Shown here one piece after another: positions 8,608 to 50,138 of a stretch of DNA of 64,000 nucleotides; positions within the stretch are counted from its first letter, which is position 1, and every line of letters begins with the position of its first letter. This DNA is from an uncultured Gammaproteobacteria bacterium (lineage in GTDB: Bacteria > Patescibacteriota > Patescibacteriia > DYHP01), in contig CAZGDX010000001.1 of the NCBI GenBank assembly GCA_964525225.1, forward strand, positions 40,654 through 104,653. Reading direction: 5' to 3'. Position numbers and translations under genes: made by a program. Under the pieces are notes generated by a model, which ran no database searches, was not told the origin of the DNA, and saw nothing but the letters and a program-made list of their open reading frames with translations.

Positions 8608-8674
8608 AAACATAAATTCTTTACATCTTCAACCCGGCGGATAGAGCATTGATTTCCTGCCCGCCACGGCCTGA

Positions 8675-8746
8675 GCCCTTGTAGCTTAATGGATAAAGTA
8701 GCGGTCTTCGGAACCGCTGATGTAGGTTCGATTCCTACCAAGGGCA
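8675..8746 (+). tRNA. tRNA-Arg (anticodon TCG)
   Basis: Manual cloverleaf: acceptor gcccttg/caagggc, anticodon stem gcggt/accgc, loop cttcgga, T-arm gtagg-ttcgatt-cctac, 4-nt variable loop. No encoded CCA. Confidence 0.85.
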
Positions 8747-8816
8747 TAGGCGATGGCAGGTGTGTTGAGGATTGGCAATCAGGGTTTGATTTTATCAGGA
8801 TGCTGTAAATAATTAC

Positions 8817-9944: not shown

Positions 9945-10022
9945 GCGCCGTTAGAGGCTTAATAGGTTAGAGCCGCTGCTTAAGCATAGCAGAGGATGCA
10001 GGTTCGAATCCTGCACGGCGCG
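9945..10022 (+). tRNA. non-canonical tRNA-like gene (78 nt)
   Basis: Perfect 7-bp acceptor gcgccgt/acggcgc, good T-arm gcagg-ttcgaat-cctgc and D-arm ggct-taataggttag-agcc. Two extra nt lie between acceptor and D-stem, and the anticodon loop reads taagcat (A at position 33; anticodon would be AGC). Confidence 0.45.
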
Positions 10023-10377: not shown

Positions 10378-12681
10378 ATGAGGCACGAGAACACGGATTT
10401 GAATAACGCGATTTGTTTGGGTGTTTTTGCCGCTGTCGCGACGATTGTTTTTTTCGTGATGTCCGGATGCATTCAGGAGGACCTGCGGCGGACTTGCGAC
10501 GATTCGGATTGTTGCGCCGAGGATTCCGATTGCGATGACGAGCTTGCGTGCACGACCGATTCTTGCGTGCGCGGAGAATGCATGTTTACTGCGGTTGACG
10601 AATTGTGTGCCGATGGCGAGGTTTGCAACCTTGCGAGCGGCTGCGTTACCGAAAATGAGTGCGACGATGACGGAGATTGTGAAGACGCCTTTGATTGTAC
10701 TGGTGATGACTGCATTGGTGGCGTCTGCATTCACGTGGCGGATTCCGACCTCTGCGAAGAGGACGAGGTTTGCAATGAGTCAAGCGGATGTGTCCGCGAG
10801 GCAGAGTGTGTTTTTGACCGCGACTGCGACGAGGAAGGCCCGGATTGCAATGCCGATCGGTGCGCGGACGGAACCTGCGAGCGCGAGCCCAGCGATGGGC
10901 TTTGCGCCGACGGCTATGTCTGTAACGCGAGCGGCATTTGTGTTTTGGGTCATGAAGACGAGTGTGACGACGACGAAGATTGCGAGGATGGTGTGGCTTG
11001 CACCGAAGACGATTGTAGCGTCGGCAGGTGCATTTTCCGTCCTATGGATAATCGCTGCGACTCGTTTGAAGAGTGCGATGTCGAGCTCGGATGCGTTTGG
11101 GAGAGTTGGGTGCAGTGCGAGGTGAGTGGCGAGTGCACGGACGGTGTGGGTTGCACACGCAATATGTGTATTGGCCATCTATGTGTGTTTGAGCCAATGG
11201 ATGAGTCCTGCGGCGAGAACGAGCGTTGCGACACAACGCTCGGATGCATTGCAATGCCGGAGTGCGATGACGATACGGATTGCGATGATGGACAAATTTG
11301 CACGACCGACACTTGCGACGATGGCGAGTGCGCCAATACTCCAGTGAATAGTCGATGCGATGACGGCAATTACTGTTCTGCTGATATCTGTTTGGCTTCT
11401 GGTGAGTGCGTTCATATGCCACTCGATAGCTACTGTGCCGCGGACGGCGAACATTGTTCGCTGGCTGCCGGCGGTTGCGTGGAGTGTACTTCCAACAGCC
11501 ACTGCGCGGATTTTGAGTTTTGCAACGCCGATTACGAGTGCGAGAGCGGATGTGGTTCGTGCGACGATGGTGTTTTTTGCACCAATGATATTTGCACAAT
11601 TTATGGTTGTACTCACACCGCGACAAACTCTCGATGCGGCAGTTCTTTGCCGTATTGCCACTCGACCCGCGGTTGCGTGGAATGCCTCACAGACGCTCAT
11701 TGCGCGAGCAATGAACACTGTGATGGTTATGTCTGCGTGGCAGACGCCGAGTGCGATGCTGATTCTGACTGCGACGATTCCATCGCCTGCACTACCAACG
11801 ATTGCGATACTGCCGGACGTTGTCTTTACACGCCGAACGACGCTTTTTGCGATGATGGCGTGTACTGCACAGTAGACGATTGTTCGCTTGCCGAGCGCGG
11901 TTGTACTCACACCGCGACAAACTCTCGATGCGGCAGTTCTTTGCCGTATTGCCACTCGACCCGCGGTTGCGTGGAATGCCTCACGGATTCTCACTGTGGG
12001 ACGGGCGAGTATTGCAGCAGTTATGTCTGCGTGGTCGATGCCGAGTGTGATTATGATGCCGATTGTTCTGACGGCGTGTACTGTACTGTGGACGACTGCG
12101 CGAGCGGTTTCTGCACGAACACGGCCGACAACACGCGTTGTTCCTATGGTTTGCTTTGCCATTTGACCGCTGGTTGCGTGGAGTGCAGGACAGACGCGGA
12201 TTGTAGTTCTTCCGAGAGCTGCGCCTCGGACCACACTTGTGTATCCGATATCTGCACTTACGATTCTGACTGTTCCGACGACATTGCCTGCACGGTGGAC
12301 GACTGCACGTCGGCTCACGATTGCACGCACACGGCGATGAATTCGCTGTGTCTGTCTGGACAGTATTGCGATCCTCTATACGGATGCCGCACGAGCACTG
12401 GTTCCGATCTGGACTACGATGGCATTCCGGACAGTTCCGATAACTGTCCGACAACGCCAAATCCCGGGCAGGCAGACATGGATTATGACCACATCGGCGA
12501 CGTGTGCGACTGTGATGTGGACGGCGACGGTTCTGTCGCGTTCATCTGTGGTGGCTGGGATTGTAACGACTACAATAACAGCGTGCATCCCGGCGCTTGG
12601 GAGGATTGCGACGACGGCATGGATAATGATTGTGATGACCTGATCGATGGTTACGATGCCGACTGCGGTTGCTGTTCCTGA
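10378..12681 (+). CDS. large secreted/lipoprotein-like Cys- and Asp-rich repeat protein with C-terminal thrombospondin type-3-like Ca-binding repeat and MopE-like (CxDxDxxxxPGAxExCDGxDNDCD) motif
   Basis: Start set at the ATG with AGGAGG at 7-nt spacing. Signal peptide ends in the lipobox-like VMSGC. About 10 repeats of the CxxDxDCxDxxxCTxDxCxxGxC...CxDGxxC pattern. C-terminus: DYDGIPDSSDNCPTTPNPGQADMDYDHIGDVCDCDVDGDG, then CNDYNNSVHPGAWEDCDDGMDNDCDD. GC about 55%. Confidence 0.8.
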   Translation: MRHENTDLNNAICLGVFAAVATIVFFVMSGCIQEDLRRTCDDSDCCAEDSDCDDELACTTDSCVRGECMFTAVDELCADGEVCNLASGCVTENECDDDGDCEDAFDCTGDDCIGGVCIHVADSDLCEEDEVCNESSGCVREAECVFDRDCDEEGPDCNADRCADGTCEREPSDGLCADGYVCNASGICVLGHEDECDDDEDCEDGVACTEDDCSVGRCIFRPMDNRCDSFEECDVELGCVWESWVQCEVSGECTDGVGCTRNMCIGHLCVFEPMDESCGENERCDTTLGCIAMPECDDDTDCDDGQICTTDTCDDGECANTPVNSRCDDGNYCSADICLASGECVHMPLDSYCAADGEHCSLAAGGCVECTSNSHCADFEFCNADYECESGCGSCDDGVFCTNDICTIYGCTHTATNSRCGSSLPYCHSTRGCVECLTDAHCASNEHCDGYVCVADAECDADSDCDDSIACTTNDCDTAGRCLYTPNDAFCDDGVYCTVDDCSLAERGCTHTATNSRCGSSLPYCHSTRGCVECLTDSHCGTGEYCSSYVCVVDAECDYDADCSDGVYCTVDDCASGFCTNTADNTRCSYGLLCHLTAGCVECRTDADCSSSESCASDHTCVSDICTYDSDCSDDIACTVDDCTSAHDCTHTAMNSLCLSGQYCDPLYGCRTSTGSDLDYDGIPDSSDNCPTTPNPGQADMDYDHIGDVCDCDVDGDGSVAFICGGWDCNDYNNSVHPGAWEDCDDGMDNDCDDLIDGYDADCGCCS

Positions 12682-12718
12682 TGTCAACCACACCTTGAAA
12701 GGAGGTGAATAGTTCTTT

Positions 12719-12752
12719 GAGGGTTTCCTAATATAGGAAGCCCTCTTTTTTA
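12719..12752 (+). terminator. Rho-independent terminator after the Cys-rich gene
   Basis: gagggtttccta...taggaagccctc stem followed by TTTTTT. Confidence 0.7.
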
Positions 12753-12760
12753 TCTCCGTA

Positions 12761-12831
12761 TGTCATCCTCGGGGCAGCGAAGCGGATCCCTGGGATCCAC
12801 GTGGATTCCCCGAACAAGTCGGGGAATGACA
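12761..12831. repeat. GTCATCC hairpin element, copy A (about 71 bp, imperfect terminal inverted repeats tgtcatcc.../...ggaatgaca)
   Basis: Shares tgtcatcct.ggggc.gcg.agcggatcc.tgggatccacgtggatt with copy B at 20584 and the opening hairpin with copies at 53593 and 59846. Confidence 0.6.
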
Positions 12832-12993
12832 GAATGGTTTAGGGCGAGGTAATCCTTTATCTCTTTGTTCCTCTTGACATCTTTTTATTTTTTTGTTAAG
12901 ATAATGTGACATCTTTAAAAAACGCCCGAAAATAAAAAAACGGGCAAAAAACCGTCCTACGCTAAAAAGCTGCGGACGGCAAAGGAGGACAAA

Positions 12994-13671
12994 ATGGCAG
13001 GAAGAAGCGCGCTCGTGGCTCTATGTGTTCTTTTCGTTTTTGGTACCATGGGTTCCAGTTGCGCGGTTCAGCCGCCACCGGAGCCGGTGGAGTGCTATTC
13101 GGACAGCGATTGTTATGACGGCGTGAATTGCACTGATGATTATTGCTTCCGCAATTTTTGTGAGAATTACGAGAATGATGAAAATTGTCCGGTAAACGAG
13201 TGGTGCGATATGCGCCGCGGATGTATCAGCAACGATGTCCCGCCCCCTGTTGATTGCCATAGCGATATCGATTGTTTTGATGGAGTTTATTGCACCTGGG
13301 ACCTGTGCGAACAGGGCGAATGCGGAAATTACGACAGCGGAATTTGCGGAGTCGGGTACTATTGCGATTCGCTTTTGGATTGCCAGCCGATCGTCACGGT
13401 TTACGACTCTGATGGTGATGGTATTGAGGATTCTATAGACAACTGTTGGGAATTTTATAACCCGTGGCAGGAAGATATGGATTGGGACGGTTGGGGTGAC
13501 GCTTGCGATTGCGACGCGGATGGCGATTGGTACGACGACGCTGTTTGGTGTGGCGGATTGGATTGCAACGATTACGATTTGTATGTCAACCCCAGCGCTG
13601 TTGAGTGGTGTAACGATTGGATTGACAATGACTGTGATGGGTATATTGATTATTACGATTACTGCTGGTAA
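12994..13671 (+). CDS. smaller secreted paralog of the Cys-rich repeat protein (same repeat type, TSP3-like and MopE-like C-terminal motifs)
   Basis: Signal peptide with a GSSC lipobox-like site. Carries DSDGDGIEDSIDNCWEFYNPWQEDMDWDGWGDACDCDADGD, then CNDYDLYVNPSAVEWCNDWIDNDCDG. Confidence 0.75.
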   Translation: MAGRSALVALCVLFVFGTMGSSCAVQPPPEPVECYSDSDCYDGVNCTDDYCFRNFCENYENDENCPVNEWCDMRRGCISNDVPPPVDCHSDIDCFDGVYCTWDLCEQGECGNYDSGICGVGYYCDSLLDCQPIVTVYDSDGDGIEDSIDNCWEFYNPWQEDMDWDGWGDACDCDADGDWYDDAVWCGGLDCNDYDLYVNPSAVEWCNDWIDNDCDGYIDYYDYCW

Positions 13672-14456: not shown

Positions 14457-14542
14457 GGAACAAAACTCCCACTAATCCATACCACTAATCCGCACTAATT
14501 ATTCGTGAGTATTGGTGGCAGAAATTAGTGGAAGTCTAGTAC
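14457..14542. repeat. 85-bp palindromic intergenic element, copy 1 (between apt and mtnP)
   Basis: Ends aacaaaactcccactaat / attagtggaagtctagtac with a cgcactaattattcgtg core; four further copies in the window. Confidence 0.7.
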
Positions 14543-14556
14543 ATAATTTATAGACT

Positions 14557-18062: not shown

Positions 18063-18148
18063 GTACTAGACTTCCACTAATTAATATCACGAATTCGCAC
18101 TAATAATTCGTGCGTATTCGTGGTTTAGATTTGTGGAAGTTTTGTTCC
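18063..18148. repeat. 85-bp palindromic intergenic element, copy 2 (between rny and ymdB)
   Basis: gtactagacttccactaat...cacgaattcgcactaataattcgtgcg...agatttgtggaagttttgttcc. Confidence 0.7.
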
Positions 18149-18157
18149 TTTTATCAC

Positions 18158-22485: not shown

Positions 22486-22587
22486 GGGTACTAAACTTCC
22501 ACAAATCTATGCCACGAATACGCACGAATTAGAAAATTAATTTATTAGTGCGAATTAGCGATAGAAATTAGTGGGAGTCTAGTTCCT
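22486..22587. repeat. 85-bp palindromic intergenic element, copy 3 (fills the groES-groEL spacer)
   Basis: actaaacttccacaaatctatgccacgaatacgcacgaattag...attagtgcgaattagcgatagaaattagtgggagtctag. Confidence 0.7.
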
Positions 22588-28197: not shown

Positions 28198-28284
28198 GGG
28201 ATACAACTTCCACTAATTTTTTTCACCAATAAGCACGAATAATTAGTGCGGATTAGTGATATAGATTTGTGGGAGTCTTGTTCC
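28198..28284. repeat. 85-bp palindromic intergenic element, copy 4 (12 bp upstream of nusA start)
   Basis: gatacaacttccactaat...cacgaataattagtgcggattagtg...agatttgtgggagtcttgttcc. Confidence 0.7.
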
Positions 28285-28449
28285 TTTTTAATTAGTGCTT
28301 AATAAAAATGACCAGTCCGCAGAGACCAGTCCTTATGTTTTTATAATACTATAAATTGAAATAAATGTCAAGCGATTGACAAAAGTTGAGTTTTTTGATA
28401 AGTTGATTTAATGTTCGTTAAAATAAAAAAAAGAAAGAAGGGAAAGAAA

Positions 28450-30898: not shown

Positions 30899-30985
30899 TT
30901 GTACAAAACTTCCACAAATCTATGCCACTAATCCGCACTAATTATTCGTGAGTATTTGTGATAAAAATTAGTGGAAGTCTATTTC
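30899..30985. repeat. 85-bp palindromic intergenic element, copy 5 (10 bp upstream of methyltransferase start)
   Basis: gtacaaaacttccacaaatctatgccactaatccgcactaattattcgtgagtatttgtgataaaaattagtggaagtctatttc. Confidence 0.7.
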
Positions 30986-30990
30986 ATTTA

Positions 30991-31248
30991 TTATTTTACC
31001 CCTTGGAATATCGGACCGAAAAACCACATTATTATATCATCCAAACTTCCGCTTACCCAGATAAAACAGATTAAGATTATTAAAATTCCGAGAAGTTTGT
31101 AAAAAGTGTGCGAACCGCCGAAAGTTCCCAGATATTTTTCCGCGAACGGCACGCTGCCGACATTGTACAAAAACCAGGTGGCTTTCCAGACAAGCAAAAA
31201 TCCCAAGACCATTCCGCCGATTCCCAAAATGTATTTTATAATGCCCAT
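30991..31248 (-). CDS. small membrane protein, hypothetical
   Basis: Two TM helices; 85 aa. Confidence 0.4.
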   Translation of the reverse strand: MGIIKYILGIGGMVLGFLLVWKATWFLYNVGSVPFAEKYLGTFGGSHTFYKLLGILIILICFIWVSGSLDDIIMWFFGPIFQGVK

Positions 31249-31313: not shown

Positions 31314-31940
31314 TTATTTTTCCGCTTCTTTGCGGCATTTTGCGATATGCCGTTCGCGAATAGGTCTTACGACAAGCTTGTTGATGAATGGAAAATACCA
31401 TGCAAGAACCAGCAGAGGGAATTTTAAAAGATATTCTTTGGCGCGATTTACCAGTTTCATCGATCTTGCGTCAAACGGCACGCCGATGAACTCATAAGCT
31501 TGATGATATGTACACATTTTAGCAAGAATGTGCCTAGCTAAAAACTCCATTTGAAATCTACGGGAATATTCCCAAAAGAAAAGTGTCAAATAAGTCATTG
31601 GAGGGTCTTCAATGGTTTGGGTAAATAACACTAGATTATCACGTCCAGTGGTTGATTCTTCAATAAGTATAACTCTTCTGACATTTTTTGGTAAACCATG
31701 ATGTTCAAACCACATTTGCATTGCCCGCGCTTCTGATAAATCGGTTCTATTTGTAAACCCACCAGCTAAATAAAGAGTAAAATCATACTTTGAGTTAGGT
31801 ATACCATATTTCGAATTGGATTCAACAAAATTTTCAACAGTACTTTTAACTGCCCCTAAATATCTTGATAGATTTCCGTCATTAACCGGATCTTTTGGTG
31901 CGCCATAACCATTGATGTATATCTTTGCACTCGTCGGCAT
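31314..31940 (-). CDS. DUF218 (YdcF/SanA/ElyC) family protein
   Basis: LYLAGGFTNRTDLSEARAMQ...VILIEESTTGRDN pattern of DUF218. Confidence 0.65.
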   Translation of the reverse strand: MPTSAKIYINGYGAPKDPVNDGNLSRYLGAVKSTVENFVESNSKYGIPNSKYDFTLYLAGGFTNRTDLSEARAMQMWFEHHGLPKNVRRVILIEESTTGRDNLVLFTQTIEDPPMTYLTLFFWEYSRRFQMEFLARHILAKMCTYHQAYEFIGVPFDARSMKLVNRAKEYLLKFPLLVLAWYFPFINKLVVRPIRERHIAKCRKEAEK

Positions 31941-32046
31941 TTTCTTGTCCCCGTTTCATTTTTTAAACAGCAGTCAATTTAATTTATCAGAAAGAGTAGT
32001 TTTTGTCAATAGTAAACAAAAAAACACCCGACTGCCGGATGCTCTT

Positions 32047-32081
32047 TGGTGCGCGCTTAGGGATTCGAACCCTATGCCCTG
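32047..32081 (-). pseudogene. 3' fragment of a tRNA (T-arm taggg-ttcgaat-cccta, acceptor 3' strand agcgcgc, discriminator A, CCA)
   Basis: Lacks the 5' half. Its acceptor strand is complementary to the 5' half-tRNA at 32185-32225. Confidence 0.5.
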
Positions 32082-32094
32082 TTAAATTCTCAAA

Positions 32095-32168
32095 TGGACG
32101 GTGCAGGATTCGAACCTGCGACCCTCTCGGTGTAAACGAGATACTCTAACCAACTGAGCTAACCGTCC
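32095..32168 (-). tRNA. tRNA-Val (anticodon TAC)
   Basis: ggacggt-ta-gctcagttggttagagt-a-tctcg-tttacac-cgaga-gggtc-gcagg-ttcgaat-cctgc-accgtcc-a. Confidence 0.85.
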
Positions 32169-32184
32169 GATGAAGATTTAACGG

Positions 32185-32225
32185 GGTAAATAAACGAGAT
32201 GCTCTAACCACTGAGTTAAGCGCGC
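32185..32225 (-). pseudogene. 5' half of a tRNA (acceptor gcgcgct, D-arm, anticodon-stem 5' strand tctcg, loop start ttta), interrupted
   Basis: gcgcgcttaactcagtggttagagcatctcgttta then non-tRNA sequence. Pairs with the 3' fragment at 32047-32081 across the tRNA-Val. Confidence 0.5.
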
Positions 32226-32229
32226 GAAA

Positions 32230-32312
32230 TGCGGACGAGAGGACTCGAACCTCCACGGTCTTGCGACCACCACCCCCTCAAAGTGGCGTGTATGCCATTT
32301 CACCACGTCCGC
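32230..32312 (-). tRNA. tRNA-Leu (anticodon GAG), class II with long variable arm
   Basis: gcggacg...anticodon stem ccact/ggtgg, loop ttgaggg, variable arm tggtcgcaagaccgt, T-arm ggagg-ttcgagt-cctct. Confidence 0.8.
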
Positions 32313-32543
32313 GTATTTTTATTGTATATTTTTAAAGATTATATTTTGTTTATTTCATCGGATTAGTGTTTTGATGCGCCCGCCACGCAAGACAGCTTGC
32401 TGGCGTTGCGGGCAGGCCACGTCCGCGTAATTTAATTTCAAATTGCAGATTTCAGATTTTACAATTTGAATTATTTTATCATAAATTTTTAATTTTGTCC
32501 AGTTTCACCGCCATCTGTGTTATCTGTGTTCCATAATCTGCGG

Positions 32544-36874: not shown

Positions 36875-36989
36875 CTTATAAGGTACAAAACCTCCACAGA
36901 TTTCTATCACAGATTTTCACAGATAAAAAAATTAATCTGTGCGTATCTGTGAAAAATATCTGCGGTGGTCTGGTACCGATAAAACGTTT

Positions 36990-49249: not shown

Positions 49250-49800
49250 TCCTTGAAATAAGAAAACCGGATAGCTGCCCCACACCTTTTGGCTTTTATT
49301 ATTTAAGTTTCGTCTATGTTCTATGTTTATATCTTAAAAAGCATGCAAAGGCCCTAGTCCAATTAAAGAGAAGAATAAGATGGTCGCTAGATGAAAGCTA
49401 AAAGGTGTGGGGAGGAAAGTCCGAACACCATTCTTCGCAGCAATGCGGGGCTTAGAGGTAGTCGCTAACGGCGACGGGGAGTAAATAATTTTGTTTTATC
49501 GCGGATTTGCGTTTATAGCGCAAACAAGCGAATGCAGTTTTAAGAAGCCCACGGATAGTGTCTTGAAAAAGGTTTGTTTTTCTTGTAGTAATATAAGAAA
49601 GATAAGCAACAGAAAATATACCGCCGAATTCCCGATTTTTCGGGAATGGCAAGGTTGAAATCGTGAGGTAAGAGCTCACGCGTAACCGCAGCGATGCGGC
49701 ATGTGGCAAACACCTACCCGGTGCAAGGTTTAAAAACCGCTTGAGCTTTATAGAAATATAAAGCCCAGAGAAATAGCTATCCACCCCTCACACGGAAAGC
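49250..49800 (+). ncRNA. rnpB: RNase P RNA (bacterial type), with an unusually long insertion in the P3 region
   Basis: Universally conserved GGAGGAAAGUCCG (P4 5' strand), ACAGAAAAUAUACCGCC, GGUAAGAGCUCACG and CACCUACCCGGUGCAAGG blocks in the canonical order. P1 candidate pairing ggatagct(49282)/agctatcc(49778). Ends are approximate. Confidence 0.75.
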
Positions 49801-50138
49801 GATTGTGTGCAACGCTTGATATTATTGGCGATATTTTAAAATGTCACTTAGAAATATTAAATGTTCAAATTATTGCATACTTTCGTTTTTTCGCTTTCCG
49901 TGTGAAGGGGGACAGAATTCGGCTTATAGGTTATCTTATATTTAAGGAACAAAAATACGCTTGAGTACTCAAGCGTATTTTTGTTTGAACACCAACTGTG
50001 TACAATTCCAATTGACACAAGTCCAAAAAAATGGTATAATATATGTGTAAGCTCGAAAAGGGTTTACTAAAACAAAAAAATAGAAATGCCCCAATTTAAT
50101 CCGCGTATAGGCGTGGAACATCTGTGGCAAAAACAAAA

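What the first reader, a model, noticed from the sequence alone, without database searches (positions are those of the whole stretch)
32047..32227. tRNA gene split into a 5' half and a 3' fragment around an intact tRNA-Val that is bracketed by ~15-bp inverted repeats
On the minus strand the order is tRNA-Leu(GAG); 3 nt; GCGCGCTTAACTCAGTGGTTAGAGCATCTCGTTTA (acceptor, D-arm, anticodon-stem 5' strand, then the tRNA ends abruptly); CCCCGTTAAATCTTCATC; complete tRNA-Val(TAC); TTTGAGAATTTAACAGGG; CATAGGGTTCGAATCCCTAAGCGCGCACCA (T-arm plus acceptor 3' strand plus CCA). The two partial pieces have perfectly complementary acceptor strands (GCGCGCT / AGCGCGC), so they derive from one tRNA. The sequences immediately flanking tRNA-Val are inverted repeats of each other (CCCCGTTAAATCTTC vs GAGAATTTAACAGGG), so they can form a stem that encloses the tRNA-Val. 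Possible explanations are a remnant of site-specific integration at a tRNA gene (duplicated att core), a tRNA carrying an intron-like insertion that itself contains a tRNA, or a decayed duplicate.
Basis: seen in the sequence. Interest (0 to 1): 0.62.

Follow-up and report, generated by a model that had tools for sequence, protein, structure and literature searches.

The report
Broken tRNA gene enclosing tRNA-Val
In a tiny-genome (Patescibacteria) bacterium, one tRNA gene has been split in its anticodon arm by a short insert carrying a complete, working-looking tRNA-Val gene. The two leftover pieces are most likely a young gene relic, not a new kind of spliced or split tRNA.

Summary
On the minus strand the order is:
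- tRNA-Leu(GAG)
- TTTC
- positions 1-35 of a second tRNA, 'X' (32225-32191)
- TTTA
- a 15-nt repeat arm
- a complete tRNA-Val(UAC) (32168-32095)
- the complementary arm
- X's T-arm, acceptor 3' strand, A73 and CCA (to 32047)
- a terminator

Three other assemblies carry the identical sequence, so it is not an assembly error.

X cannot be rebuilt. Positions 36-43 are missing, ARAGORN's intron mode finds nothing, and Rfam finds no group I core. I see no bulge-helix-bulge motif. The best artificial splice gives U37 and a 13-nt unstructured variable region.

Relatives differ at this slot. One has Leu directly followed by Val with no X. One has an X-like 5' part right after Leu. One has X's 3' end with a normal variable loop.

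No integrase or transposase lies within ±14 kb, and neither tRNA's 3' end is repeated elsewhere in the window.

Best reading (about 0.6): X is a recently disrupted tRNA gene and Val is the functional one. The inverted repeat would act as a leader-trailer helix around Val.

A functional two-piece tRNA-like RNA is not excluded (about 0.1). Interest is modest.

The parts
32230..32312 (-). tRNA-Leu(GAG), first gene of the operon. No encoded CCA. It is followed by TTTC (32229-32226).
   Evidence: ARAGORN. Rfam tRNA, 48.4 bits.
32191..32225 (-). 5' piece of tRNA 'X', positions 1-35: acceptor 5' strand GCGCGCT, D-arm (with an A10-C25 mismatch), the anticodon-stem 5' strand TCTCG, then TTTA.
   Evidence: Sequence. 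Aligns to positions 1-37 of the Rfam tRNA model as a 3'-truncated hit of 9.8 bits, E = 7.5. It is 95% identical over 20 nt to the matching part of tRNA-Val.
32187..32190 (-). TTTA, a repeat of the last 4 nt of the 5' piece. With the next bases it reads TTTATTTACCCC, which resembles the sequence upstream of tRNA-Val in relative L016 (TTTATTTACGCC).
   Evidence: Local alignment, p about 0.01.
32172..32186 (-). Left arm of the inverted repeat, CCCCGTTAAATCTTC (leader of tRNA-Val).
   Evidence: Pair probabilities 0.5-1.0 in the partition function.
32095..32168 (-). Complete tRNA-Val(UAC), no encoded CCA. It is orthologous to the tRNA-Val that follows tRNA-Leu in relatives L001 and L016.
   Evidence: ARAGORN. 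Rfam, 71.9 bits. Relatives.
32077..32091 (-). Right arm of the inverted repeat, GAGAATTTAACAGGG (trailer of tRNA-Val). Its last three G overlap the variable-loop-like GGGCA of X.
32047..32076 (-). 3' piece of tRNA 'X': CA, the T-arm TAGGG-TTCGAAT-CCCTA (32074-32058), the acceptor 3' strand AGCGCGC (32057-32051), A73 (32050) and CCA (32049-32047).
   Evidence: The last 26 nt are identical to the start of relative contig L012. X acceptor pairs have probability 0.89-0.99.
32019..32046 (-). Intrinsic-terminator-like hairpin plus T-run that ends the Leu-X-Val transcription unit.
32316..32429 (-). A second tRNA scar in the same locus. A 13-nt copy of the 5' end of tRNA-Leu (TACGCGGACGTGG, 32429-32417) is followed by a 101-nt segment holding a GC-rich hairpin. 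This copy and segment are absent from the closest relative, L011.

Best explanation
This is the tail of an ordinary tRNA operon (promoter, tRNA-Leu(GAG), tRNA-Val(UAC), terminator) in a Patescibacteria/Parcubacteria genome. A second tRNA gene, X, has been broken open in its anticodon arm by a segment of about 115-130 bp that carries the complete tRNA-Val gene with its own short flanks.

X keeps positions 1-35 and about 44-76 plus CCA. It has lost positions 36-43: the last anticodon base, the rest of the loop and the 3' strand of the anticodon stem. No excision can regenerate a decoding tRNA.

How it most likely works (inferred from standard bacterial tRNA processing):
- The whole unit is transcribed as one precursor.
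- RNase P and RNase Z release tRNA-Leu and tRNA-Val. Neither encodes CCA, so a CCA-adding enzyme completes them.
- The X pieces are by-products, serving as leader and trailer.
- The 15-bp inverted repeat forms a leader-trailer helix that closes off tRNA-Val. This may help it fold next to the very similar 5' piece of X.

X is a young relic, tolerated because the inserted tRNA or another copy elsewhere covers its function. The event fits a slot that turns over quickly among relatives: the position after tRNA-Leu holds Val, X or junk in different lineages.

Shown: the anatomy, the absence of a restorable anticodon arm, the variation among relatives, and the lack of mobile-element genes.
Inferred: loss of function, the processing route, and the origin by insertion plus deletion.
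For: Anatomy and significance.

Real DNA: identical sequence in three other assemblies.

X is not restorable.
- ARAGORN with introns up to 300 nt and relaxed thresholds finds no X.
- The canonical-length spliced product (74 nt) has a mismatched anticodon stem.
- The only product with a good stem (UCUCG/UGAGA, 84 nt) has loop UUUAUUU with U37 and an unstructured 13-nt variable region. That stem has probability about 0 in the fold.

Signs of relaxed constraint in X:
- A10 gives an A10-C25 mismatch, where the X-like gene in L015 has G10-C25.
- A48 stands where L012 has the usual C48 in AGGTC.

The slot is variable among relatives.
- L001 (65% diacylglycerol-kinase-family (DAGK) protein identity) has Leu, 1 nt, Val, CCA, terminator and no X or repeat.
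- L016/L017 (49%) have Leu, 297 nt of tRNA-Leu 3' fragments, then Val.
- L015 (63%) has Leu, 11 nt, then an X-like 5' part.
- L012 has X's 3' end with a normal variable loop just upstream of the DUF218 gene.
- A second scar sits 114 nt upstream in the window and is absent from the 92% relative L011.

Leader-trailer helices:
- One also flanks tRNA-Arg at 8675-8746.
- Shuffling the left arm lowers the mean predicted native pairing of tRNA-Val from 0.62 to 0.43.

The start of the insert resembles the sequence upstream of Val in L016 (p about 0.01).
Against: - The X pieces are very well kept for a relic: 7/7 acceptor pairs, 5/5 T-stem pairs, a canonical T-loop and an encoded CCA directly before the terminator.
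- X's last 26 nt are identical to those of a relative whose neighbouring protein is only 53% identical. This fits either a very recent break or continued selection.
- I could not obtain any genome between 65% and 100% relatedness that spans the site. The age of the event and any compensatory change are therefore unknown.
- The contigs of L015 and L012 stop at X positions 32 and 44. They are equally compatible with an intact X and with the same nested layout.
- The inverted repeat is not explained by the insertion itself, and it is absent around tRNA-Val in L001 and L016.
- A one-step route to this layout needs an insertion plus an 8-12 nt deletion.
- Whether the genome has another copy of X is unknown, because only 64 kb is visible.
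Confidence: 0.6

Rival explanations
1. The composite is functional at the RNA level. After RNase P and RNase Z cut out tRNA-Val, the two X pieces would stay paired through the 7-bp acceptor stem and the 15-bp helix, forming a two-piece tRNA-like RNA with a CCA end. It could be an RNase P-cleavable processing module for the 3' end of tRNA-Leu and for tRNA-Val, a decoy, or a substrate for a ligase. It would resemble a cis version of the archaeal split tRNAs.
For: - The acceptor stem and T-arm are perfect, and CCA is encoded.
- X acceptor pairs and repeat pairs are predicted at 0.5-1.0 probability, and the whole stretch folds at z = -4.9.
- The halves are followed and preceded by mutually complementary sequence, as in Nanoarchaeum split tRNAs (my own knowledge of Randau et al. 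2005).
- X's 3' end is conserved with L012.
- X's G1 lies only 4 nt after tRNA-Leu, so RNase P cleavage there would trim the Leu trailer (inference).
Against: - No anticodon arm can form: the UCUCG/UGAGA stem has probability about 0, and the spliced loop has U37.
- A10-C25 and A48 break conserved contacts.
- The layout is absent from L001 and L016.
- No bulge-helix-bulge motif is visible, and no bacterial enzyme is known to process such a substrate.
- None of 68 cases in viral contigs of a complete tRNA followed closely by a second T-loop showed a convincing matching 5' half. Six gave junction-spanning calls, which on inspection looked like neighbouring complete tRNAs or over-long spurious calls.
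Confidence: 0.12
2. The pieces are scars of tyrosine-integrase recombination at a tRNA gene (att-site remnants), left after an integrated element was largely deleted.
For: - The 5' piece ends in the anticodon loop, a classic crossover sublocation (my own knowledge of Williams 2002).
- The locus carries other tRNA fragments: the Leu 5' copy at 32429-32417 and Leu 3' fragments in L016.
- The gene just downstream (DUF218-like, 31940-31314) is an accessory gene. It is absent from L001 and L016 and sits in other contexts in L013 and L014.
- tRNA gene fragments produced by integration are common in prokaryotes (PMC9897764, abstract).
Against: - Integration normally leaves an intact tRNA plus a duplicated partial copy. 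Here the two pieces are complementary halves and no intact X is present.
- Neither X's nor Val's 3' end is repeated elsewhere in the 64 kb.
- No integrase, recombinase or transposase lies within ±14 kb. The neighbours are housekeeping genes: NusA, YidC, GroEL/ES, RNase Y, ArgRS, S6, SSB, EF-P, RecA and FtsK.
- tRNA-Val is the native gene of this locus, not cargo.
Confidence: 0.1
3. The insert is a small mobile cassette: a MITE-like element with 15-bp terminal inverted repeats that carries a tRNA gene and transposed into X.
For: Imperfect 15-bp inverted repeats sit 3 nt from each end of the tRNA. The insert size of about 115 bp is typical of MITEs (my own knowledge).
Against: - No other copy of the arm exists in 64 kb beyond its own partner.
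- There is no target-site duplication.
- Removing the element does not restore X.
- tRNA-Val is orthologous to the resident Val of relatives.
- The helix around tRNA-Arg has an unrelated sequence.
Confidence: 0.06
4. X is an intron-containing tRNA, with either a group I intron (as described for Patescibacteria at position 35/36) or an archaeal-type intron, and the intron happens to contain tRNA-Val.
For: The break falls at about position 35/36 of the anticodon loop. That is the unusual group I insertion site reported for tRNA-Asn and tRNA-Asp in this phylum (PMC13011429, abstract).
Against: - No Intron_gpI or other ribozyme hit appears at E up to 10.
- The insert is only about 115-130 nt, of which 74 are tRNA-Val.
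- The 3' exon lacks positions 36-43.
- ARAGORN's intron mode is negative.
Confidence: 0.02

Closest known systems
[quoted passage not shown] 2023, PMC9897764)
   Same: These are tRNA-derived pieces next to intact tRNA genes. Standard tools do not call them, and they probably do not function in translation.
   Different: Those fragments are typically duplicated 3' or 5' parts left by integrated elements or CRISPR activity. Here both complementary halves of one gene survive, on either side of a different, intact tRNA. No element or integrase is nearby.
Split tRNAs of Nanoarchaeum equitans, and archaeal bulge-helix-bulge (BHB) introns
   Same: The tRNA is divided in the anticodon region. The 5' half is followed, and the 3' half preceded, by mutually complementary sequence that can hold the halves together.
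   Different: This case is bacterial and in cis. I see no BHB motif. The 3' half lacks the anticodon-stem 3' strand, so no complete tRNA results. The intervening sequence is itself a tRNA.
Group I introns in Patescibacteria tRNA genes at position 35/36 (Nakagawa et al. 2026, PMC13011429)
   Same: Same phylum. The interruption lies in the anticodon loop at about position 35/36. Standard annotation misses the gene.
   Different: No group I catalytic core is detected. The insert is too short and consists mostly of tRNA-Val. The exons are not joinable.
Leader-trailer processing stems of rRNA operons and some pre-tRNAs
   Same: An inverted repeat directly brackets a stable RNA gene within a longer precursor. 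A comparable helix flanks tRNA-Arg in this window.
   Different: The helix is short (15 bp, AT-rich, with two mismatches). It is not conserved around tRNA-Val in relatives, and no cleavage by RNase III or any other enzyme has been shown.

Membership tests
Intact bacterial tRNA gene (X) | A contiguous cloverleaf that reaches the Rfam tRNA gathering score (29 bits) or is called by ARAGORN. | tested here: not met
   No hit for X in the Rfam E-value scan. No ARAGORN call, even with introns up to 300 nt and lowered thresholds.
Intact bacterial tRNA gene (X) | A 7-bp acceptor stem, a discriminator base, and a T-arm with the loop TTCRANY. | tested here: met
   GCGCGCT/AGCGCGC pair 7/7. A73 and CCA are present. 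The T-arm is TAGGG-TTCGAAT-CCCTA. Pair probabilities are 0.89-0.99.
Intact bacterial tRNA gene (X) | A 5-bp anticodon stem with a 7-nt loop, U33 and a purine at position 37. | tested here: not met
   Across the splice junctions I enumerated, the inspected canonical-length (74-nt) product has a mismatched stem. The product with the good stem has U37 and a 13-nt variable region.
Group I intron-interrupted tRNA | An intron with a group I catalytic core. | tested here: not met
   No group I hit at E up to 10 in 31900-32500. The insert is about 115-130 nt, of which 74 are tRNA-Val.
Group I intron-interrupted tRNA | Exons that join into a canonical tRNA. | tested here: not met
Archaeal-type split or BHB-intron tRNA | A bulge-helix-bulge motif at the exon-intron junctions. 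| tested here: not met
   By inspection of the sequence and the predicted folds. The junction helix is a plain 15-bp stem with two 1x1 C-A mismatches. It has no pair of 3-nt bulges around a 4-bp helix.
Archaeal-type split or BHB-intron tRNA | Complementary sequences adjoining the two halves. | tested here: met
   13 of 15 positions pair, counting one G-U.
Archaeal-type split or BHB-intron tRNA | A splicing endonuclease (EndA) and a ligase encoded in the genome. | not testable with these tools
   Only 64 kb of the genome is visible. None of the 26 ORFs I scanned within about ±14 kb of the site matched such an enzyme.
att-site tRNA fragment from integrase-mediated integration | The fragment duplicates part of an adjacent intact tRNA, with a second copy at the far end of an element. 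| tested here: not met
   No intact X is present, and neither X's nor Val's 3' end is repeated in the window.
att-site tRNA fragment from integrase-mediated integration | An integrase or recombinase gene nearby. | tested here: not met
   Pfam scans of ORFs within ±14 kb found only housekeeping families.
MITE or IS-like element | Terminal inverted repeats. | tested here: met
   15-nt arms, 12 of 15 complementary as DNA.
MITE or IS-like element | A target-site duplication, multiple copies in the genome, and restoration of the target on excision. | tested here: not met
   No duplication at the junctions. No further copy in 64 kb. Excision does not restore X.
tRNA pseudogene (relic of a broken gene) | An intact orthologue in relatives, a disrupted copy here, and departures at conserved positions. 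| tested here: inconclusive
   An X-like 5' part (L015) and a 3' part with a normal variable loop (L012) exist in relatives, but both contigs end inside the gene. The window's X has A10-C25 and A48.

The most novel reading that the evidence does not exclude
The nested layout may be a working unit rather than a wreck. A complete tRNA-Val would be transcribed inside a tRNA-like shell. RNase P and RNase Z would then release Val and leave a stable two-piece, CCA-ended tRNA-like RNA, held together by the acceptor stem and the 15-bp helix. That RNA could serve as a processing handle for the CCA-less tRNA-Leu and tRNA-Val, or as a tRNA mimic. It would be the first bacterial counterpart of archaeal split tRNAs, and a live example of how split or intron-bearing tRNA genes can arise.
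Probability: 0.1. Interest if true: 0.7.

Novelty: new variant of a known kind. Interest (0 to 1): 0.3.

Why it matters
If it is a relic, it is a clean snapshot of how tRNA genes turn over in reduced Patescibacteria genomes. One gene is knocked out by an insert that carries a replacement-capable tRNA, in a slot that holds different tRNAs in different relatives. It also warns annotators that tRNA halves can hide on either side of an intact tRNA.

If the shell RNA turned out to be stable or functional, it would extend split or nested tRNA gene architectures from archaea to bacteria. It would also give a testable model for the origin of disrupted tRNA genes.

Tried and rejected
- **ARAGORN intron and pseudogene options**: no X.
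- **Rfam on each piece placed at the end of the stretch searched**, so that truncated matches are allowed. The 5' piece scored 9.8 bits and the 3' piece gave only local T-arm look-alikes. That is too weak to count as membership.
- **Relatives by protein anchors.** The metagenome and genome collection scans, both done with the DAGK-family protein, yielded one 92% relative whose contig stops before the tRNAs and one irrelevant hit.
Contigs of the closest relatives end inside or next to the tRNA cluster. L018 and L019 did not include it.
- **Viral contig scans for X's ends and for DAGK relatives:** nothing.
- **A survey of viral contigs for two T-loops 14-44 nt apart**. It gave 68 cases of an intact tRNA followed closely by a second T-loop. 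Six gave junction-spanning calls that on inspection looked like neighbouring complete tRNAs or over-long spurious calls, and none showed a convincing matching 5' half. The nested form is therefore not common there.
- **Guessing X's amino-acid identity by BLAST against phage tRNAs** gave contradictory answers: Lys for the 5' piece and Gly for the 3' piece. X's identity stays unknown. UA at positions 34-35 would fit Val(UAC) or Ile(UAU), but those bases may belong to the junction.
- **Homology of the terminator after X to the terminator after Val in L001:** not significant (p = 0.08).
- **A second nested case around tRNA-Arg.** GGATAGAGCA...TTCCTG lies upstream and ATCAG downstream, but neither ARAGORN splicing nor Rfam supports it.
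- **An attC-like reading of GTTAAAT/ATTTAAC** was rejected because the order of the core sites is inverted.
- **Assembly artefact** was rejected.

Full report
**What is there**

Read on the minus strand, 32312 to 32019 contains, in order:
- tRNA-Leu(GAG), 32312-32230
- TTTC
- GCGCGCTTAACTCAGTGGTTAGAGCATCTCGTTTA, 32225-32191
- TTTA
- CCCCGTTAAATCTTC, 32186-32172
- ATC
- a complete tRNA-Val(UAC), 32168-32095
- TTT
- GAGAATTTAACAGGG, 32091-32077
- CA
- TAGGGTTCGAATCCCTA, AGCGCGC, A, CCA, ending at 32047
- a hairpin plus T-run terminator, 32046-32019

ARAGORN and Rfam call only Leu and Val; Val scores 71.9 bits. The spacer after Leu is 4 nt, not 3. It omitted the TTTA. The repeat has 12 Watson-Crick pairs, 1 G-U and 2 C-A mismatches out of 15.

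**Are the two pieces one tRNA, and is this more than chance?**

The acceptor strands pair 7/7 and the T-arm is canonical. Every universally conserved D- and T-loop residue is present, and the 3' piece ends in ACCA.

As a control I joined the 75-nt flanks of each tRNA at every possible junction and ran ARAGORN. The flanks of tRNA-Val gave 48 junction-spanning tRNA calls out of 3080. The flanks of 11 other tRNAs in the window and in relatives gave 0 of 3080 each.

The full stretch folds with the X acceptor stem, the repeat helix and the X T-arm closed, at z = -4.9. In the partition function the X acceptor pairs have probability 0.89-0.99 and the repeat pairs 0.5-1.0.

The same 606-nt intergenic sequence is 100% identical in two JGI contigs and one Logan contig from other samples. 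Over kilobases these contigs are 99.97-100% identical to the window. They prove the assembly but carry no evolutionary information.

**Organism and neighbourhood**

The window comes from a Patescibacteria (Parcubacteria-group) genome. The best hits to the flanking diacylglycerol-kinase-family (DAGK) protein are named that way. The RNase P RNA is expanded to 576 nt.

Within ±14 kb the genes are RNase Y, GroEL/ES, YidC, NusA, a methyltransferase, a DUF218-like protein, the kinase-family protein, bactofilin, ArgRS, S6, SSB, EF-P, RecA and FtsK. There is no integrase, recombinase or transposase.

**Can X be restored?**

No.
- ARAGORN with introns up to 300 nt and relaxed thresholds finds nothing.
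- Rfam at E up to 10 shows no group I intron or any other ribozyme.
- With each piece placed at the end of the searched stretch, the 5' piece aligns to tRNA model positions 1-37 at only 9.8 bits. The 3' piece gives no tRNA hit.
- Among all artificial splices, the 74-nt product has a mismatched anticodon stem. The only product with a good stem (UCUCG/UGAGA) is 84 nt, with loop UUUAUUU (U at position 37, where tRNAs have a purine) and an unstructured 13-nt variable region. That stem has essentially zero probability in the fold, because GAGA is used by the repeat helix.
- I see no bulge-helix-bulge motif.

X therefore lacks positions 36-43 in any usable form.

**Relatives**

The slot after tRNA-Leu varies.
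- L001 (kinase-family protein 65% identical): Leu, 1 nt, Val, CCA, terminator. It has no X pieces and no repeat.
- L016/L017 (49%): Leu, then 297 nt containing scrambled 3' fragments of tRNA-Leu, then Val.
- L015 (63%): Leu, 11 nt, then GCACGCTTAGCTCAGTTGGCTAGAGCACTTCGT at the end of the contig. This is an X-like 5' part with G10-C25 intact.
- L012: begins AGGTCTGGGGTTCGAATCCCTAAGCGCGCACCA, directly upstream of two DUF218-like genes. This is X's 3' end with a normal variable loop, and its last 26 nt are identical to the window.
- L011 (92%): ends exactly at the CCA of tRNA-Leu.

Three things follow. tRNA-Val, with acceptor GGACGRT, is the old resident of this locus. X is a distinct tRNA that occurs at the same slot in some lineages. 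The window alone is seen to hold both, one inside the other. The L015 and L012 contigs break at X positions 32 and 44, so they cannot show whether X is intact there.

**Signs of turnover and decay**

- The window's X has A10, giving an A10-C25 mismatch, and A48 in place of the usual pyrimidine. Both positions normally form conserved contacts.
- A 13-nt copy of the 5' end of tRNA-Leu lies 114 nt upstream, followed by a 101-nt segment with a GC-rich hairpin. This copy and segment are absent from L011.
- The start of the insert (TTTATTTACCCC) resembles the sequence upstream of Val in L016 (TTTATTTACGCC, p about 0.01). This hints that Val arrived with its own flank.
- The accessory DUF218-like gene next to X is absent from L001 and L016, and it sits in other contexts in L013 and L014.
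- Neither X's nor Val's 3' end is repeated elsewhere in the 64 kb.

**The inverted repeat**

The repeat is not part of a repeat family in the window. It has no target-site duplication, and it is absent around Val in L001 and L016.

A comparable leader-trailer helix of unrelated sequence flanks tRNA-Arg at 8675-8746. Shuffling the left arm lowers the mean predicted probability of tRNA-Val's native pairs from 0.62 to 0.43. I therefore read the repeat as a leader-trailer helix that closes off Val inside the precursor. This is an inference from folding predictions only.

**Verdict**

The most likely reading (about 0.6) is that X is a tRNA gene recently broken by an insertion plus deletion that placed the locus's tRNA-Val in its anticodon arm. 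Val and Leu would be released by RNase P and RNase Z and completed by CCA addition, since neither encodes CCA. The X pieces would be by-products.

What keeps this from being certain is how well the pieces are preserved, together with my failure to obtain any relative that spans the site at intermediate distance.

The rivals, in order:
- a functional two-piece tRNA-like shell (about 0.12)
- integrase scars (about 0.10)
- a MITE-like tRNA cassette (about 0.06)
- a true intron (about 0.02)

A survey of viral contigs found 68 cases of an intact tRNA followed closely by a second T-loop. Six gave junction-spanning calls that on inspection looked like neighbouring complete tRNAs or over-long spurious calls, and none had a convincing matching 5' half. 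The nested form is unusual, but on present evidence it occurs in a single lineage.

In kind, it is a variant of known disrupted or partial tRNA genes (PMC9897764). It resembles archaeal split tRNAs, and the 35/36 group I introns of Patescibacteria (PMC13011429), in position only.

Noticed in passing
window 32316-32429 (minus strand): A 13-nt copy of the 5' end of tRNA-Leu (TACGCGGACGTGG) lies 114 nt upstream of the real gene. It is followed by a 101-nt segment with a GC-rich hairpin (GCCCGCAACGCCAG...CTTGCGTGGCGGGC). This copy and segment are absent from the 92% relative L011. It looks like a recent insertion or duplication inside or next to the tRNA gene.
   Followed up: partly
window 8615-8816: tRNA-Arg(TCG) is bracketed by a leader-trailer helix (CCTGCC..GCC / GGC..GGCAGG, -22 kcal/mol). 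Upstream sits GGATAGAGCATTGATTTCCTG, which looks like the D-arm and anticodon-loop remnant of a tRNA-Arg(CCT). A matching ATCAG lies downstream. Neither ARAGORN splicing nor Rfam supports a second nested relic.
   Followed up: partly
window 9947-10020: A weak tRNA-like gene (Rfam 30.4 bits, gathering score 29) that ARAGORN does not call. It has extra bases between the acceptor and the D stem, anticodon loop TAAGCAT (A at position 33), and the same T-arm as tRNA-Val. It lies in a cluster with tRNA-Leu(TAA), tRNA-Ile(TAT) and tRNA-Lys(TTT).
   Followed up: no
window 49367-49942: The RNase P RNA (bacterial type A) spans 576 nt against a 367-position model and barely passes the gathering score (103.4 vs 100). 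It therefore has large insertions.
   Followed up: no
window 14458-14551, 18063-18156, 22488-22583, 28199-28292, 30901-30994, 36883-36926: A family of partly palindromic intergenic repeats of about 92 nt (CCACTAATCC...GGATTAGTGG type), 66-91% alike. One copy lies between the 85-aa gene and the methyltransferase gene, about 1 kb from the tRNA cluster.
   Followed up: no
window 10600-13400: A GC-rich stretch (0.48-0.53 against about 0.40 elsewhere) with at least six copies of a 52-nt coding-type repeat (…GATTGTTCTGACGGCGTGTACTGTAC…), and a 103-nt repeat at 11605 and 11899. It is probably a large repetitive protein gene.
   Followed up: no
L016 4877-5173 (also L017): Between tRNA-Leu and tRNA-Val, this relative has 297 nt containing scrambled tRNA-Leu parts. 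These include an acceptor/T-arm minihelix (GGCGGAA...GTTCGAGTCCTCTTCCGCC), a copy of the variable arm (GCTCGCAAGAGCTT) and a terminal CCCGCGCA. This is another sign that the locus collects tRNA debris.
   Followed up: partly
L020-L139 (IMG/VR contigs): At least 120 viral contigs have two GGTTCGAATCC T-loops only 14-44 nt apart. In 68 cases the first belongs to a complete tRNA and the second does not lie in a called tRNA. Gaps of 27-28 nt recur often in the listing.
   Followed up: partly
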